Part shown: one piece after another, positions 545 through 6,053 of the stretch | How the letters are laid out: each line of letters begins with the position of its first letter | How positions within the stretch are numbered: the first letter of the stretch is position 1 | NCBI GenBank assembly: GCA_018296565.1 | Contig: GCA_018296565.1_3935.1 | Length of the DNA stretch: 64,000 bases | From: a phage | Reading direction: 5' to 3' (one strand) | Program-made: the position numbers and the translations under genes | Notes under the pieces: generated by a model | The model's input: the letters and a program-made list of their open reading frames with translations, nothing else | Database searches by the model: none | Told to the model about the DNA's origin: nothing

Positions 545-1093
545 ATGAAGAAATTGATTCTAGGTTTGTGCTTAATGTTTACAGCACAATTATCTTATGC
601 AGTTGACTGCCCAGAGCTATCAATTAGCCAAAAAGTAAACATGTTAAAAGCTTACCAGTATGGTGAGAACAACATGGGTAAAGGTTGGGGTATTACTCTA
701 GCTGCTATAGCCTTACAAGAGTCAGAGTTAGGTCTAAAGGTAGAGAATAAAAAGACCCATGACTATGGTATTTTCCAGAATCACTTGAAGACTGTTGTAA
801 AGCGTAACAAAATCAGTCCTAATGTGGCTAAAAAGAAGCTCTTAAAAGATTTTGATTATGCCGCTAAAGAAACACATAAAGAGCTTGAGTTTTGGACAAA
901 GGTGCATGGTCAGCCAAAGTCAAAGAAGACTTTACAAAAAGTTTTAGCATCATATAATGCTGGGTATTCGTACAAAATCCCTAAAGCTAAGAAATATTCT
1001 CAAGATGTCTATAACAACATGAAAGTTATTGCTCAATGTGAATTTGCAACAAACATTTCTAAGGTAAACCATGAAAAAATTAAGAAAGTCTGA
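545..1093 (+). CDS. lytic transglycosylase (SLT-domain) with N-terminal signal peptide
   Basis: N-terminus MKKLILGLCLMFTAQLSYA is signal-like; ALQESELG catalytic-Glu context, YGIFQ and ASYNAGYSY motifs typical of family 1 lytic transglycosylases. Confidence 0.6.
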   Translation: MKKLILGLCLMFTAQLSYAVDCPELSISQKVNMLKAYQYGENNMGKGWGITLAAIALQESELGLKVENKKTHDYGIFQNHLKTVVKRNKISPNVAKKKLLKDFDYAAKETHKELEFWTKVHGQPKSKKTLQKVLASYNAGYSYKIPKAKKYSQDVYNNMKVIAQCEFATNISKVNHEKIKKV

Positions 1094-1766
1094 TGAAGTA
1101 CTGTGCCATGCTTACGACTTGCACCCTCATGAGTTAGGTCTTGATTCCTGTGTATGGACTCCAGAACAGTGCAGGGATTTTGAAGATACTGCAAGAGAAG
1201 TTGTATGTTCACTTGAAGAGTTCCACACATCAGAACCAATTGTGAGCGTTGTGGACAAAGAGACTGGACAAACTGTAGGTGTAAGGCGTGACAGCTTAGT
1301 CATAGTCAATAAAGACCTTGTAGAAAAAGGTAACCTTATCTTAGCAGACATTGATGGTGTTCTTACAAATTTTAATCACGAAGATTACTCAACGGAATTG
1401 ATTGATGGGTCATTTTCACAGTACACTAATTTGCTTGACTCTGTAAGAGCAAAACCAACGTATGTTTTTAGTATTATTGATGCAATTGCTAATCATGCTG
1501 CCATTGGACTCTTGACAGCGAGAGGTGAATCTCAGAGAATACCTACTGAGATGTTTTTAAGGCATAACATAGAGCATGACTACATGCTTTTTATGCGTGG
1601 TTTTGGAACTAACTCTATAAGTGCAGAAAGTTTGAAAGTGAGGATGATTCAGTCTTGCATCCTGCCTTACTTTAATATAGTATGTTTTATAGAAGACACA
1701 GAGAAGAATGTGCAGAAGGTGAACAGAATCCTTCCACACATTAAAACCATGTTAGTTAAACATTGA
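1071..1766 (+). CDS. hypothetical protein, possible HAD-superfamily phosphatase
   Basis: LILADIDGVLT resembles HAD motif I (DxDG[TV]L); LLTARGE and FIEDTEKN resemble motifs II and IV; start overlaps upstream stop. Confidence 0.4.
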   Translation: MKKLRKSDEVLCHAYDLHPHELGLDSCVWTPEQCRDFEDTAREVVCSLEEFHTSEPIVSVVDKETGQTVGVRRDSLVIVNKDLVEKGNLILADIDGVLTNFNHEDYSTELIDGSFSQYTNLLDSVRAKPTYVFSIIDAIANHAAIGLLTARGESQRIPTEMFLRHNIEHDYMLFMRGFGTNSISAESLKVRMIQSCILPYFNIVCFIEDTEKNVQKVNRILPHIKTMLVKH

Positions 1767-2293: not shown

Positions 2294-2641
2294 ATGACAT
2301 TTAAAGAGTTCTGTCAAGCTACTTTCATAATTGTTTTCTTAGTTGGGGCAGGTGTCTGGGGAGGATACTCTTACAGAGACTATCAAGTTGCTGAAACTGA
2401 GCTAAACAATCAAAAGCTCATAAGTGTTGCTAAAGATGCTTATCAGGAAGGATTAGTTACACTGAGCACCAATTACAAAAATGATTTGAAAGATGTGCTT
2501 GCTAAGAATAAGCACACAAAAGAGGTACTAACATATGAAAAAACTAAGCCAGAGTTTTATAATGTTTGTGTTACTGATAATTATGTCAGGGTGTTCAACG
2601 AACAAAGTGAACAGTACATTCAAAAACTCCCAAGTAAGTGA
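2294..2641 (+). CDS. membrane-anchored coiled-coil protein (i-spanin-like candidate)
   Basis: N-terminal hydrophobic segment FIIVFLVGAGVWGGY followed by charged helical region; the downstream lipoprotein gene starts inside this ORF in another frame. Confidence 0.45.
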   Translation: MTFKEFCQATFIIVFLVGAGVWGGYSYRDYQVAETELNNQKLISVAKDAYQEGLVTLSTNYKNDLKDVLAKNKHTKEVLTYEKTKPEFYNVCVTDNYVRVFNEQSEQYIQKLPSK

Positions 2642-2804
2642 GAGTGATAAGTACACTCAAGAAGAATCACGGTATATCATCAAAGGCAACACAGGCAGTG
2701 ATGTAGCAGCAGCACTTGAGTTCTATCGTGATGGCTTTTACCAGTGTACAATTAAAGCTAATAACCTTATTGACATGATTTTATTAGGGAATAAGCAGCA
2801 ATGA
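2535..2804 (+). CDS. small lipoprotein (o-spanin-like candidate)
   Basis: AAGAGG RBS 10 nt upstream; signal plus lipobox-like LIIMSGC; overlaps 3-prime end of the 2294 ORF. Confidence 0.45.
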   Translation: MKKLSQSFIMFVLLIIMSGCSTNKVNSTFKNSQVSESDKYTQEESRYIIKGNTGSDVAAALEFYRDGFYQCTIKANNLIDMILLGNKQQ

Positions 2805-3070
2805 CAGAGAATCAAGACACTTTCTATGTAGAAGGTTACTTACTGTTGCCACGACCAAAAGAAACTTATATGCGAATCGATTTCTTACCAACCATTATGG
2901 ATAATGTGATGTGTCATATCTTTATGCAAGGTGTCACAGCACAGCTTAAGCATGTTGGTAAAGATTGCAAAATAAAGGTTGACACTCATCCAGAAATCAA
3001 AGAGAATCACTACACATGGTTCTTACCAGATTCTAAAGAAATCTTAGCAGTTCTTAAAACGAGGAAGTAA
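2801..3070 (+). CDS. hypothetical protein
   Basis: ORF with ATG overlapping upstream stop. Confidence 0.5.
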   Translation: MTENQDTFYVEGYLLLPRPKETYMRIDFLPTIMDNVMCHIFMQGVTAQLKHVGKDCKIKVDTHPEIKENHYTWFLPDSKEILAVLKTRK

Positions 3071-3072
3071 CT

Positions 3073-3399
3073 ATGCAGATTAATGGAAGAGATTTTGTAG
3101 CCGTTTATTACGAGAAAGATAAAGAAGTTGGCGTAGCACAAGTATCTTATGGCAATGGTAAGTGGTTGTATGGGACAATCGCAGTAGTCGGAACAAGAAG
3201 TGATACAAAAACTTTTAAAGACTGTGTTGACCTTCTTGAAGAATCCATCCACAATCATTGGTGTCTGATATGGATGACTGATAACGAAGTGATGGAGCGT
3301 TTCAAAAAGATTGATATCAATATTGACAGTATTGAGCATGTTGATTTATATGAGCTAACTGAGAAGGTAAACTATGAAAGTAATACTAGCCAGAGATAA
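3073..3399 (+). CDS. hypothetical protein
   Basis: ORF, tightly packed operon. Confidence 0.5.
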   Translation: MQINGRDFVAVYYEKDKEVGVAQVSYGNGKWLYGTIAVVGTRSDTKTFKDCVDLLEESIHNHWCLIWMTDNEVMERFKKIDINIDSIEHVDLYELTEKVNYESNTSQR

Positions 3400-3601
3400 A
3401 AAGACACGGAAACTTATCAGGTCAGCAGTGTTCATTGGACGGAATGAGGTCATCCCATTTACAGCAAATGATGTGATAGCTTACAGGAAGAACTTAGTAT
3501 TTAGTGATTGCTTGCGTGGCTTCATCTCCCAACCATTGGAAGACTTTAAAAGCCGTTGTGGTAAAGGTATCATCATTCAAGAGGTAATTATCAATGGCTG
3601 A
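3374..3601 (+). CDS. hypothetical protein
   Basis: ORF with RBS gagaagg. Confidence 0.45.
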   Translation: MKVILARDKKTRKLIRSAVFIGRNEVIPFTANDVIAYRKNLVFSDCLRGFISQPLEDFKSRCGKGIIIQEVIING

Positions 3602-3794
3602 CTTCTGCAAAGACTGTTCTATAGAAATGTTTGGACGTGATACAGGTGACTTAAAAGGTCTTATCACTGAAGATGACTTTAAAGCTGGTTATGCAATGCC
3701 AGTAATCTGTGAAGGTTGTGGATGTATCTGGGTAGACCATGAGGGGCAACGTGTAAAACCTTCAGAAGATAAAGAATCTTGGGAGAGATGTTAA
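3594..3794 (+). CDS. hypothetical Cys-rich small protein (possible zinc-binding)
   Basis: CKDC ... CEGCGC cysteine pairs. Confidence 0.45.
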   Translation: MADFCKDCSIEMFGRDTGDLKGLITEDDFKAGYAMPVICEGCGCIWVDHEGQRVKPSEDKESWERC

Positions 3795-4580
3795 ATGGGT
3801 ATTGTAAAAATAATCAATGGTGATATCTTTGCCGCATTTGATAAAGGTAAGTTTGACATCATCGGTCACGGTTGCAACTGTATGAATTTAATGGGTGCAG
3901 GTATCGCTGACAAGATTTCTAAACTTTACCCAAAAGCATATGAGACCGATACAGAAGTTTATCTATATGCAGGTGGTATAGGACACAAACCCTGTGAAAA
4001 TTTACTGGGTAATTTCTCTGTAGCACGTTTAAAACAAGGTCGTATAGCTAACCTTTACACTCAGCTTAAGACTGGTAAAGATGCCCGATACAGTGCTTTA
4101 GAGTCATCTTTGAAACAGCTTAACAGATACTGTGAAGTCAATCAGTTGAAGAAAGTCGGGTTACCTATGATTGGTGCAGGTATCGGTGGGCTAGACCCTC
4201 AAGCCGTCACAGTTATCATTAATCAGGTGATGAAGAGTGTAGATGTTTATCTATATGTCTATGAAGGAGAGATGTACCACAAGTTACGCTCAGGTTGGAA
4301 GAACTACTGTGAACCAGAATACTTTGCAGGTGTAGTTGTGTTCACGGATAATGCAGTTACCCTCTTCAGACGAAGAAAAGGTAAGATACATCAAAGTAAC
4401 CCTCCGGTTGAAAAGATGTCTCTAAGTAACGCTCTAGTTACCCACCTGTCAAAGAGCAATCACAGAATTGCTGTAACATTTGGTAGTGATGCAGAAGCTT
4501 ATATCTATGCAAGAACTGATGAGGATATCGAGGCAATCTTCTCTTCACCAGAAGTTACCTTCTTAGACGCAAAGAACTAA
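3795..4580 (+). CDS. macrodomain protein (ADP-ribose processing, TARG1/DarG-like) with C-terminal extension
   Basis: INGDIF...DIIGHGCNCMNLMGAGIADKI and ...GLPMIGAGIGGLDPQ match macrodomain glycine-rich loops as in TARG1-type enzymes. Confidence 0.55.
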   Translation: MGIVKIINGDIFAAFDKGKFDIIGHGCNCMNLMGAGIADKISKLYPKAYETDTEVYLYAGGIGHKPCENLLGNFSVARLKQGRIANLYTQLKTGKDARYSALESSLKQLNRYCEVNQLKKVGLPMIGAGIGGLDPQAVTVIINQVMKSVDVYLYVYEGEMYHKLRSGWKNYCEPEYFAGVVVFTDNAVTLFRRRKGKIHQSNPPVEKMSLSNALVTHLSKSNHRIAVTFGSDAEAYIYARTDEDIEAIFSSPEVTFLDAKN

Positions 4581-4649
4581 GAAACTCTGTAGGATATTCA
4601 CAATAGCCTAAGCCTTTCTTATCTGGTAAATTTTTCAGGTAAGGAGGGC

Positions 4650-4832
4650 TTTTTCATTTCAGAATTGTGCAGGTAGAGTTCTGTAGAGAAATCTGTAGAG
4701 AGAATTTTGAACTCCAAAGAGAAAATTCATTTTCAAACTGTGCAGGTAATCTCCAAAGAGCTTTTTCATTTTCAAAACGTGCAGACTCCGCTCAGGTCGG
4801 GCAAGAAAAATCATTTTAGAATTGTGCAGGTA
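4650..4832 (+). repeat. four spaced copies of motif tttcatttYcaNaaYtgtgcaggta
   Basis: Copies at about 4650, 4726, 4761, 4808; a fifth partial copy follows the terminator at 2271. Confidence 0.6.
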
Positions 4833-5008
4833 GGTTTTTATAGACAGCCAGCCCAACACCTCTCCCCCTCTTACTCCCCCTCTCCCCAAAAGTCAATAGA
4901 AAAATTTGTAGCGGATTGAAAAATAATTCTTGATTTGCGTTCTGTTTTGTGGTAGTCGTGCGCACCCGTTTCATTACAGTTTTGCCAAAAATATTTTTAA
5001 AATTTTTA

Positions 5009-5037
5009 TTGACTCTTTGAACGTGGTTATCTAATAT
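5009..5037 (+). promoter_or_regulatory. sigma70-like promoter
   Basis: TTGACT, 17 nt, TAATAT, just upstream of first leader of the small-gene array. Confidence 0.55.
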
Positions 5038-5100
5038 TTACATCAACGGGGAGGGAATGACCTTCCCCACTAAATAAAATCCTAAACTGGAGATTCAAAA

Positions 5101-5289
5101 ATGGCATCAAGAAAAATTAAAGTTGGCGATGAGGTTAACATTAAGCACGAATACTCTTACAAAATGCTAACTATACGCTCTTATAAGGTTTATCAGGTGG
5201 AAGCTATCCACAAAGATAATACTTTTTCCTTAAAAGGGTATAGCGAACGTTTCCCTGCTGAACTCTTTGAGAAATGGAGCGCGAAATAA
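5101..5289 (+). CDS. hypothetical small protein (cassette gene, type B leader)
   Basis: Conserved leader catcaacggggagggaatgaccttcccc...ctggagattcaaaa then ATG. Confidence 0.65.
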   Translation: MASRKIKVGDEVNIKHEYSYKMLTIRSYKVYQVEAIHKDNTFSLKGYSERFPAELFEKWSAK

Positions 5290-5495
5290 TGCTTTACAGT
5301 CGTGAATTGATGGTTACAACTAACGTTAACACAAAGGTAAAACGTTTTTACATGCAAATTTGTGGCGTATGGTCCAGAATATCAGAAGCCGACTATTGCA
5401 ACTATGTAGAAACGGCTATTAATTCTAATTGCTACCTTACAAGAAACACTAAGAAATTTACAAGGCAGACAGCGATTTACTACTACGACAAATAA
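5289..5495 (+). CDS. hypothetical small protein
   Basis: ATG overlaps upstream stop (TAATG), GGAG 10 nt upstream; ORF track start 5274 is an alternative. Confidence 0.5.
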   Translation: MLYSRELMVTTNVNTKVKRFYMQICGVWSRISEADYCNYVETAINSNCYLTRNTKKFTRQTAIYYYDK

Positions 5496-5583
5496 AGTAC
5501 TTTACAGGGGGCTTAAAAGCTGATATCTTAAGCCCCAGATAAAGAGCTTTACTAAATTAACCCTTAAACTAGGAGATTCAAAA

Positions 5584-5964
5584 ATGGCTTATCGTGCACC
5601 GAAATTCATCAACAAAGACAACTTTCGCAACGCACTGGAGAAGTCACTTGATGAAAATTTTAAAGGTAACATTATCATTGTTCACGCATTCAATTTTAAG
5701 TATGATATTAACGGGAATAAAATCAACCATTACACGGCAACCATGATAGATGGTACTCTATCAAGTGAAAAAGCCATTTTACATGCACTTGCAGGACGTG
5801 GTAAAAACCTGATAAGATGCGATAAGAGACGTTATCAGGGTGGCGCATATGGTTATGATGATGCTGTTTATCATCTTGAAAATATGGGCTATTCAGTGGA
5901 AAAAGCTGGAGTGTCTCAAATAATCGGCAGTGACGGCTATGTGACAATTTTCAAAATTAACTGA
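5584..5964 (+). CDS. hypothetical small protein (cassette gene, type A leader)
   Basis: Preceded by ggggcttaaaag...taagcccc hairpin and ctaggagattcaaaa RBS block. Confidence 0.65.
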   Translation: MAYRAPKFINKDNFRNALEKSLDENFKGNIIIVHAFNFKYDINGNKINHYTATMIDGTLSSEKAILHALAGRGKNLIRCDKRRYQGGAYGYDDAVYHLENMGYSVEKAGVSQIIGSDGYVTIFKIN

Positions 5965-6053
5965 TAAAGTACTTTACAAGGGGCTTATAGTTCGATAAAG
6001 TAAGCCCCAGATAAAGAGCTTTACCACTAAATCCTAAATTGGAGAACTTAAAA

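What the first reader, a model, noticed from the sequence alone, without database searches (positions are those of the whole stretch)
3795..4580. Phage-encoded macrodomain protein, a candidate counter-defence enzyme
The N-terminal 170 aa carry the two glycine-rich loops of macrodomains (GHGCNCMNLMGAGIADKI and GLPMIGAGIGGLDP) in the arrangement I recall for TARG1/DarG-type ADP-ribose hydrolases; a C-terminal extension of about 90 aa has unknown function. Bacterial defences that ADP-ribosylate DNA or proteins (DarT toxins are the established example) are reversed by macrodomains, so a phage macrodomain in an early region is a plausible anti-defence factor. The similarity is judged from memory of motif patterns, not from a search.
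Basis: partly seen in the sequence, partly recalled or inferred. Interest (0 to 1): 0.7.

Follow-up and report, generated by a model that had tools for sequence, protein, structure and literature searches.

The report
Phage macrodomain, likely anti-DarT2 enzyme
This Felix-O1-type phage gene encodes a genuine macrodomain (ADP-ribose-removing) enzyme of the family that phage T4 needs to escape the bacterial DarTG2 DNA-ADP-ribosylating defence; it carries an extra, fast-evolving tail domain of unknown role, so it is a believable but not new kind of counter-defence gene.

Summary
The ORF (3795..4580, +, 261 aa) and both glycine-rich loops are exactly as described. Pfam Macro scores above its gathering cutoff. 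The AlphaFold model (pLDDT 90.6) superposes on TARG1 and DarG macrodomains (TM 0.8). The window is a Felixounavirus, and the protein is 100% identical to one in phage XTG1.

The protein shares PHROG 335 with T4 Tk.4 (35% identity, E 3e-24) and with PhiKZ gp104. Knocking out tk.4 sensitises T4 to DarTG2 (2025 preprint, named AdfM). PhiKZ gp104 (also named AdfM, 2026) removes DarT2 ADP-ribose from DNA.

One correction: the catalytic lysine of TARG1, DarG and PhiKZ AdfM is an invariant glutamine (Q90) here and in T4 Tk.4. Streptomyces SCO6735 has the same arrangement, needs that Gln, and cleaves thymidine-linked ADP-ribose. The protein is not a DarG: it has no DarT partner or DarT-binding domain, and scores 47.8 against a 250-bit cutoff.

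The C-terminal ~100 aa form a separate β-rich domain found only in Ounavirinae-like phages. It has no detectable fold or sequence relatives and evolves about ten times faster than the macrodomain (dN/dS 0.15–0.56 vs 0.01–0.04). Its function is unknown. No experiment exists for any Felixounavirus.

Verdict: real, sensibly interpreted, and a new member of a recently established kind.

The parts
3795..4580 (+). Complete gene for the 261-aa two-domain macrodomain protein (stop codon included)
   Evidence: ORF list and DNA read. 100% aa identity to a phage XTG1 protein; 258 phage records cover at least 80% of it. PHROG 335 at E 3e-113.
3795..4265 (+). Macrodomain, aa 1-157 (class of TARG1/DarG/SCO6735/Poa1p)
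   Evidence: Pfam Macro 32.4 bits against a cutoff of 22. Profile against PDB. Foldseek TM 0.81-0.84 to TARG1 and Taq DarG. dN/dS 0.01-0.04.
3864..3917 (+). Loop 1, GHGCNCMNLMGAGIADKI (aa 24-41). H25, G26, N28, C29, M33, G36 and A38 are invariant. N28 aligns with PhiKZ AdfM N23, which its paper equates with Taq DarG N22.
   Evidence: Family alignment. BLASTP to PhiKZ gp104. Best PDB match for this loop is Poa1p HSCNC...GGGIA.
4050..4064 (+). Invariant NLYTQ motif (aa 86-90). The Gln90 codon CAG is at 4062-4064 and occupies the position of the catalytic Lys of TARG1 (K84) and PhiKZ AdfM (K78).
   Evidence: phmmer and profile alignments to TARG1. BLASTP and hhalign to PhiKZ gp104. The same NLYTQ is present in T4 Tk.4. 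SCO6735 Q85 is stated to be equivalent to TARG1 K84 and DarG K80, and is essential (PMC9411070).
4158..4199 (+). Loop 2, GLPMIGAGIGGLDP (aa 122-135; the diphosphate-binding loop by homology). P124, G127 and G129 are invariant. G131 aligns with TARG1 D125.
4266..4577 (+). Linker helix plus C-terminal β-rich domain (aa 158-261) of unknown function, restricted to Ounavirinae-like phages
4610..4651 (+). Terminator-like hairpin followed by a T-run, ending the transcription unit
   Evidence: Consensus scan. A pattern match only; the number of such sites is not enriched over shuffles.

Best explanation
The gene encodes an orphan, antitoxin-like ADP-ribosyl-glycohydrolase of the AdfM type (anti-DarT factor, macrodomain). 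During infection of a host carrying a DarTG2 toxin-antitoxin system, DarT2 is released and ADP-ribosylates thymidines in single-stranded phage DNA, which blocks replication. The phage macrodomain binds the ADP-ribose through its two glycine-rich loops and hydrolyses the thymidine-ribose bond, restoring usable DNA. The active site is Gln-type: the H25/N28/Q90 positions match those probed by mutagenesis in SCO6735 (H24, N27, Q85). Q90 most likely positions the distal ribose, as proposed for SCO6735 Q85, rather than acting like the catalytic lysine of TARG1. The C-terminal domain is a lineage-specific accessory module. Its most likely roles are targeting or protein-protein contact, and binding DarT2 in the manner of DarG's second domain is one possibility. 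SHOWN here: macrodomain identity and fold; invariance of the loops and of H25/N28/Q90; membership of the same PHROG as T4 Tk.4 and PhiKZ gp104; purifying selection on both domains. TAKEN FROM PAPERS: the T4 tk.4 knockout is DarTG2-sensitive; PhiKZ AdfM and SCO6735 remove thymidine-linked ADP-ribose from DNA. INFERRED: that this protein has the same substrate and phenotype, and any role for the C-terminal domain.
For: Macrodomain identity rests on Pfam above cutoff, the fold match and PDB profile hits to TARG1, DarG, SCO6735 and Poa1p. DarG is the only hit in the NCBIfam and PADLOC libraries. The protein shares a PHROG with T4 Tk.4 (E 1e-65) and PhiKZ gp104 (E 8e-43). It is 35% identical to T4 Tk.4 (E 3e-24) with shared HGCNC and NLYTQ motifs. 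T4 tk.4 is the only transposon-screen hit on DarTG2, and its clean knockout is DarTG2-sensitive. PhiKZ AdfM removes DarT2 ADP-ribose from DNA. SCO6735 has Gln at the same position, Q85A is inactive, the enzyme cleaves dT-ADPr and it protects against DarT. The macrodomain's very low dN/dS of 0.01-0.04 indicates a maintained enzymatic function. The gene keeps a syntenic position in relatives at 35% identity.
Against: No experiment exists on any Felixounavirus protein, and no paper links DarTG2 to this genus. Hydrolysis by T4 Tk.4 was inferred, not shown. Identity to the biochemically characterised PhiKZ AdfM is only 23%, and its catalytic Lys is not conserved here. SCO6735 also acts on protein substrates, so specificity for DNA cannot be read from sequence. 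The extra C-terminal domain is absent from every characterised homologue and could redirect the enzyme elsewhere.
Confidence: 0.65

Rival explanations
1. A broad or different-substrate ADP-ribosylhydrolase. It would reverse ADP-ribosylation of proteins or RNA installed by other host ADP-ribosyltransferase defences or toxins (for example the mRNA-modifying CmdTAC), with the C-terminal domain supplying that targeting. DarT2 reversal would be absent or secondary.
For: SCO6735, which has the closest active-site type, also de-ADP-ribosylates a protein substrate. ADP-ribosyltransferase defences other than DarT exist, such as CmdTAC (PMC11618068). The lineage-specific, fast-evolving C-terminal domain is absent from the T4 and PhiKZ AdfM proteins and could change specificity.
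Against: The only phenotype known for a close family member (T4 Tk.4) is against DarTG2. The only defence-library hit is DarG. The part of the CmdTAC paper searched mentions macrodomains only in its reference list, with no phage macrodomain counter-defence in the text examined.
Confidence: 0.15
2. A metabolite-processing enzyme, as the database label 'phosphatase' or 'O-acetyl-ADP-ribose deacetylase' implies. It would hydrolyse ADP-ribose-1''-phosphate or O-acetyl-ADP-ribose as part of phage NAD/ADP-ribose metabolism, not of counter-defence.
For: Loop 1 is most similar to the yeast ADP-ribose-1''-phosphatase Poa1p. GenBank records label orthologues phosphatase or OAADPr deacetylase. A related genome carries a ribose-phosphate diphosphokinase plus nicotinamide phosphoribosyltransferase pair about 7.5 kb upstream on the same strand.
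Against: These labels are inherited from the A1pp/Poa1p naming, not from tests. The T4 family member has a defence-specific phenotype. No known phage pathway produces ADP-ribose-1''-phosphate (own knowledge). Such a role gives no reason for a fast-evolving accessory domain.
Confidence: 0.1
3. A non-catalytic ADP-ribose binder. It would act as a sponge or reader for ADP-ribose-derived immune signals (such as Thoeris gcADPR or His-ADPR) or as a stoichiometric DarT blocker, since the canonical catalytic Lys is missing.
For: Q90 replaces the catalytic Lys and G131 replaces TARG1 D125. A macrodomain binds His-ADPR in type II Thoeris ThsA. Catalytically dead SCO6735 Q85A still inhibits DarT.
Against: Gln at this position is compatible with high turnover in SCO6735 and is required for it. 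The Gln is invariant across the family, including functional T4 Tk.4. Near-absolute conservation of H25/N28/Q90 and dN/dS of 0.01-0.04 fit an enzyme better than a sponge.
Confidence: 0.05

Closest known systems
T4 Tk.4 / AdfM (anti-DarT factor Macrodomain; HIDEN-SEQ preprint, bioRxiv 10.1101/2025.11.20.689424)
   Same: Same PHROG 335. 35% identity over the whole macrodomain, E 3e-24. Shares HGCNC, NLYTQ (Gln-type) and IGAGIG motifs. Both are orphan phage genes with no DarT partner.
   Different: T4 Tk.4 is a single domain of 155 aa, whereas the window protein has an extra domain of about 100 aa. The anti-DarTG2 phenotype is shown for T4 only.
PhiKZ gp104 / AdfM (chimallivirus DarG2-like antitoxin; PMC13309987)
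   Same: Same PHROG 335. The macrodomains are homologous (hhalign probability 96%). N28 aligns with its active-site N23.
   Different: Only 23% identity. Its putative catalytic K78 is Q90 here. It is a single domain that is imported into the phage nucleus, a structure described for chimalliviruses; this Felix-O1-type phage is not one.
Streptomyces coelicolor SCO6735 (PDB 5e3b; PMC9411070)
   Same: Macrodomain of the same class with Gln at the catalytic-Lys position and no TARG1-type Asp. Profile E 2.5e-15. Proven dT-ADPr DNA hydrolase that protects against DarT.
   Different: A chromosomal bacterial protein. A residue-by-residue alignment could not be printed here, so the equivalence of Q90 and Q85 is by transitivity through TARG1 K84. 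By position offset, SCO6735 K34 appears to correspond to Ala35 here (inference). It has no C-terminal β domain.
DarG2 antitoxin of DarTG2 (Taq 5m31/5m3e, Mtb 5m3i; NCBIfam NF048014)
   Same: Macrodomain fold (TM 0.82 to 5m3e). Only family hit in NCBIfam and PADLOC.
   Different: Scores 47.8 bits against a 250-bit cutoff, and only profile positions 4-153 of 338 match. K80 is replaced by Gln. There is no DarT-binding C-terminal domain and no adjacent darT gene.
Human TARG1/OARD1 (PDB 4j5q/r/s)
   Same: Best sequence and structure match in the PDB.
   Different: The catalytic dyad K84/D125 corresponds to Q90/G131 here.
Yeast Poa1p ADP-ribose-1''-phosphatase (PDB 6lfq-6lfu)
   Same: Closest match for loop 1 (H-x-C-N-C...G-x-G-I-A...YPKA). 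TM 0.75. It is the source of the 'phosphatase' label.
   Different: A metabolite phosphatase of tRNA-splicing by-product metabolism (own knowledge). No such pathway is known for this phage.

Membership tests
Macro domain (Pfam PF01661) | Profile score at or above the curated gathering threshold | tested here: met
   32.4 bits against a cutoff of 22; aa 25-141 match profile positions 2-117 of 118.
Macro domain (Pfam PF01661) | Macrodomain fold | tested here: met
   AlphaFold2 pLDDT 90.6. Foldseek returns 240 PDB hits at E of 1e-3 or better, and nearly all of the 50 listed are macrodomains; target TM up to 0.84.
Macro domain (Pfam PF01661) | Two glycine-rich ADP-ribose-binding loops retained on alignment | tested here: met
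   G26, G36, G127 and G129 are invariant, and G34 and G132 nearly so, in 31 sequences. The loops align to the TARG1 loops.
ALC1-like macrodomain class (TARG1, DarG, SCO6735; class name as used in PMC9411070) | Closest sequence and structure neighbours belong to this class | tested here: met
   Profile E-values: TARG1 4e-17, Mtb DarG 5e-16, SCO6735 2.5e-15, Taq DarG 1.5e-13. The top Foldseek hits are TARG1 and DarG. Poa1p is also close (4e-15), but its class assignment rests on my own knowledge.
TARG1-type hydrolase | Catalytic Lys84/Asp125 dyad | tested here: not met
   K84 aligns with Q90 and D125 with G131. Q90 is invariant in the family.
DarG antitoxin (NCBIfam NF048014 equivalog; PADLOC DarG) | Full-length profile score above the curated cutoff | tested here: not met
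   47.8 bits against a cutoff of 250; only profile positions 4-153 of 338 match. PADLOC matches profile positions 18-146 of 329 only.
DarG antitoxin (NCBIfam NF048014 equivalog; PADLOC DarG) | C-terminal DarT-binding domain | tested here: not met
DarG antitoxin (NCBIfam NF048014 equivalog; PADLOC DarG) | Adjacent darT toxin gene | tested here: not met
   The neighbours are small phage ORFs, spanins and a PNKP-like gene. No DarT is annotated in the window's relatives.
DarG antitoxin (NCBIfam NF048014 equivalog; PADLOC DarG) | Catalytic Lys (Taq K80) | tested here: not met
   Q90 aligns with PhiKZ AdfM K78, which its paper equates with Taq DarG K80.
Gln-type dT-ADPr hydrolase (SCO6735-like) | Gln at the catalytic-Lys position, plus His and Asn in loop 1 (SCO6735 H24, N27, Q85) | tested here: met
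   H25, N28 and Q90 are invariant. Q90 is equivalent to TARG1 K84, which the paper equates with SCO6735 Q85. The His and Asn equivalence rests on the profile-to-chain offset and is an inference.
Gln-type dT-ADPr hydrolase (SCO6735-like) | Hydrolysis of thymidine-linked ADP-ribose on ssDNA | not testable with these tools
   Requires an enzyme assay.
AdfM (phage anti-DarT factor, macrodomain) | Phage-encoded orphan macrodomain homologous to T4 Tk.4 and PhiKZ gp104 | tested here: met
   All three fall in PHROG 335. BLASTP to T4 Tk.4 gives E 3e-24. hhalign to PhiKZ gp104 gives probability 96%.
AdfM (phage anti-DarT factor, macrodomain) | Needed for phage growth on DarTG2-carrying hosts | not testable with these tools
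   Shown for T4 and PhiKZ only. No Felixounavirus data exist.

The most novel reading that the evidence does not exclude
The Ounavirinae-specific C-terminal domain is a new toxin-engaging module. It would bind DarT2 or another host ADP-ribosyltransferase directly, making this protein a convergently evolved 'mini-DarG' that both erases the DNA mark and blocks the enzyme. Its fast evolution would reflect an arms race with variable host toxins.
Probability: 0.15. Interest if true: 0.6.

Novelty: new member of a known kind. Interest (0 to 1): 0.35.

Why it matters
If the function holds, Felix-O1-type phages carry a built-in answer to DarTG2. These phages are widely used for Salmonella and E. coli typing, biocontrol and therapy, so this bears on predicting their host range on DarTG2-positive clinical strains.

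The result also suggests that AdfM-type macrodomains are common in phages, not confined to T-even phages and jumbo phages. Macrodomain homologues occur in about 2,800 phage records. A glutamine occupies the catalytic-lysine position in all 31 family members examined and in the experimentally validated T4 member.

The unexplained, conserved yet rapidly evolving C-terminal domain is the only open question. It is a tractable one: a truncation construct could be compared with the full-length protein.

Tried and rejected
- **C-terminal-only homology search:** a word-index search with the C-terminal 102 aa alone returned nothing, so that search was wasted. The later exhaustive profile search showed the domain is confined to the family.
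- **Repeat-protein hits:** the large repeat proteins hit by the C-terminal profile (P0033, P0035-P0038) looked at first like a repeat-family lead. Their Pfam content is heterogeneous and unrelated, so I rejected them as spurious.
- **P0032 (114 aa):** it looked like a stand-alone C-terminal domain. It begins with the last macrodomain strand ('VDVYLYVY') and is a truncated fragment of a P0009-like protein.
- **AFDB50 fold search:** not possible, because the library was unavailable.
- **Direct alignment to SCO6735 (5e3b):** it could not be printed, because TARG1 entries fill the top five and the N-terminal query returned only Poa1p. The equivalence is therefore by transitivity.
- **Fetching an annotated DarG from plasmids:** this returned only orphan macrodomain proteins, so DarG's C-terminal domain was not compared directly.
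- **C-terminal charge:** a consistently acidic (ssDNA-mimic) or basic (DNA-binding) character was tested and not found.
- **Rfam:** no match at 3000-6000.
- **Phage-encoded ADP-ribosyltransferase partner:** none is annotated in a related genome.

Full report
**Observation**

The window carries an ORF at 3795..4580 on the + strand encoding 261 aa. Its ATG directly follows the TAA stop of a 66-aa upstream ORF, and a GGAG sequence lies 9 nt upstream.

**Origin of the window**

Megablast of 3000-6000 finds 250 phage records, mostly E. coli, Salmonella and Shigella phages, including records named Felixounavirus. The best is 97.9% identical (KhF3). The annotated relatives fetched are classified Ounavirinae; Felixounavirus. 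The protein is 100% identical to a 'hypothetical protein' of phage XTG1. GenBank labels its orthologues 'phosphatase', 'O-acetyl-ADP-ribose deacetylase' or 'macro domain protein'. Homologues of the macrodomain part occur in 2,794 phage records, but only 258 cover at least 80% of the protein.

**Is it a macrodomain?**

Yes.
- Pfam Macro scores 32.4 bits against a gathering cutoff of 22.
- A profile built from 31 homologues hits PDB sequences of TARG1 (4e-17), M. tuberculosis DarG (5e-16), SCO6735 (2.5e-15), yeast Poa1p (4e-15) and T. aquaticus DarG (1.5e-13).
- AlphaFold2 with that alignment gives pLDDT 90.6 and pTM 0.89.
- Foldseek's best PDB matches are TARG1 and Taq DarG macrodomains, with target TM 0.81-0.84.
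- DarG is the only family hit in NCBIfam and in PADLOC.

**Active site**

The family alignment shows H25, G26, N28, C29, M33, G36, A38, N86, L87, T89, Q90, P124, G127 and G129 invariant in all 31 sequences. In both the single-sequence and the profile alignment to TARG1, its catalytic K84 aligns with Q90 and its D125 aligns with G131. In BLASTP and hhalign comparisons with PhiKZ gp104, N28 aligns with N23 and Q90 aligns with K78. The PhiKZ paper equates these residues with Taq DarG N22 and K80.

The protein therefore lacks the TARG1/DarG catalytic lysine. This does not make it a dead enzyme. The SCO6735 paper reports that SCO6735 has Gln85 at exactly this position. It also reports that Q85A and Q85E abolish activity, that the enzyme removes thymidine-linked ADP-ribose from DNA with high turnover, and that it protects against DarT (PMC9411070). 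Loop 1 (H-x-C-N-C...G-x-G-I-A...YPKA) is most similar to Poa1p.

**What homologues are known to do**

Three recent papers matter.
- The HIDEN-SEQ preprint reports that T4 tk.4 is the single transposon-screen hit that becomes essential on DarTG2-expressing E. coli. A clean knockout is DarTG2-sensitive. The authors name the gene adfM and infer, but do not show, removal of ADP-ribose from DNA.
- A Cell Reports 2026 paper names PhiKZ gp104 AdfM. It shows removal of DarT2-installed ADP-ribose from DNA, and shows that mutants lose 3 to 6 logs of titre on DarTG2 hosts.
- A Nature Communications 2025 paper describes the NADAR enzyme AdfN, which plays the analogous role against DarTG1.

I located T4 tk.4 and PhiKZ gp104 and compared them directly. 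T4 Tk.4 is 35% identical over the whole macrodomain (E 3e-24) and shares HGCNC and NLYTQ, so it is also Gln-type. PhiKZ gp104 is 23% identical. All three fall in PHROG 335, with E-values of 3e-113, 1e-65 and 8e-43.

No Felixounavirus was screened, and no paper links the genus with DarTG2.

**Not a DarG**

The NCBIfam DarG equivalog scores 47.8 bits against a 250-bit cutoff, and only profile positions 4-153 of 338 match. PADLOC's DarG model also matches only its macrodomain part. No darT gene is adjacent. The protein is an orphan antitoxin-like enzyme, as the AdfN and AdfM papers describe for their proteins.

**The C-terminal domain**

Residues 158-261 form a linker helix, six β-strands and a short helix.
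- It has no Pfam family; the only match is a sub-threshold PH-domain hit at E 0.078.
- A profile of the domain scanned against 1.84 billion representative proteins finds only members of this family. The few large repeat proteins it also hit are heterogeneous and spurious, and P0032 is a truncated fragment.

The two-domain architecture persists in relatives down to 33% identity. Those relatives lie in syntenic rIIB / Dam methyltransferase / PNKP-like / small-ORF / macro contexts.

The domain diverges two to three times faster than the macrodomain. Identity is 46-55% against 76-82% in closer relatives, and 16-26% against 41-53% in distant ones. Within the genus, dN/dS is 0.15-0.56 for this domain against 0.01-0.04 for the macrodomain. 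It is maintained, but much freer to change. Its charge is not conserved, with pI ranging 4.6-9.5, which argues against both a DarG-like acidic ssDNA mimic and a simple basic DNA binder. In the full-length model the domain reaches pLDDT 85-94 with overall pTM 0.89, which suggests it packs against the macrodomain rather than hanging loosely. Its function remains unknown. A targeting or protein-contact role is my inference.

**Context**

The gene is the last of a run of tightly packed same-strand ORFs. Terminator-like hairpins lie at 2253-2270 and 4610-4651. Upstream are rIIB, a transglycosylase-like lysin, a PNKP-like HAD protein and a spanin pair. A related genome has no annotated ADP-ribosyltransferase. 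It does carry a ribose-phosphate diphosphokinase plus nicotinamide phosphoribosyltransferase pair about 7.5 kb upstream, outside this window. 'Early region' is plausible by analogy but was not tested.

**Verdict**

I put about 0.65 on the protein being a DarT2-reversing ADP-ribosyl-DNA hydrolase.

The rivals are a broader or different ADP-ribosylated substrate (0.15), metabolite processing (0.10), and non-catalytic binding (0.05).

The protein is a new member of the recently established AdfM kind and is already annotated as a macrodomain in public records. The only unexplained element is the lineage-specific C-terminal domain. Interest is modest.

Noticed in passing
window 4655-4829 (+), intergenic region 4581-5100: There are four direct copies of an 18-nt motif, CATTTYARAAYYGTGCAG, at 4655, 4728, 4767 and 4812, just after the terminator-like hairpin. 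The motif occurs nowhere else in the 64-kb window (chance expectation 0.13). One exact copy also lies downstream of the macro gene in EC6, SLAM_phiST56, C600M2 and the distant relative L008. This looks like a conserved regulatory or promoter array, but its function is unknown. No Rfam family matches.
   Followed up: partly
window 3594-3794 (+): This 66-aa ORF has two CxxC pairs and looks like a zinc ribbon. It belongs to PHROG 2210 (unknown function). Its stop codon abuts the macro gene's ATG. It is 74% conserved in Mooglevirus Michonne. A 63-aa four-Cys ORF also abuts the macro gene in distant relative L003 (23% identity), but not in L008. It may be a translationally coupled partner.
   Followed up: partly
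window 1071-1766, 2294-2641 and 2535-2804 (+): A PNKP-like HAD protein is followed by an overlapping i-spanin/o-spanin pair; the second ORF has a lipobox-like LIIMSGC. From my own knowledge this resembles the T4 pseT / pseT.2 / pseT.3 arrangement, which suggests a conserved gene block shared with T-even phages.
   Followed up: no
related genome PP948675.1 68863-71572 (outside this window): Adjacent genes annotated 'ribose-phosphate diphosphokinase' and 'nicotinamide phosphoribosyltransferase' lie about 7.5 kb upstream of the macro gene on the same strand. From my own knowledge this pair resembles a phage NAD+-reconstitution pathway. If so, the phage would carry two ADP-ribose/NAD-centred counter-defence functions.
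   Followed up: no
plasmid collection, e.g. NZ_CP081467.1 101656-102105 and CP057073.1 19859-20305: Orphan single-domain macrodomain proteins 28-36% identical to this one occur on 65 plasmid records, mostly large non-mobilizable Bacillus plasmids and one E. coli record. They may act as orphan antitoxins or anti-addiction factors on plasmids.
   Followed up: no
literature: Two independent groups gave the name AdfM to different macrodomain proteins: T4 Tk.4, which is Gln-type, and PhiKZ gp104, which is Lys-type. The two are only distantly related within PHROG 335, which may cause confusion in the nomenclature.
   Followed up: yes
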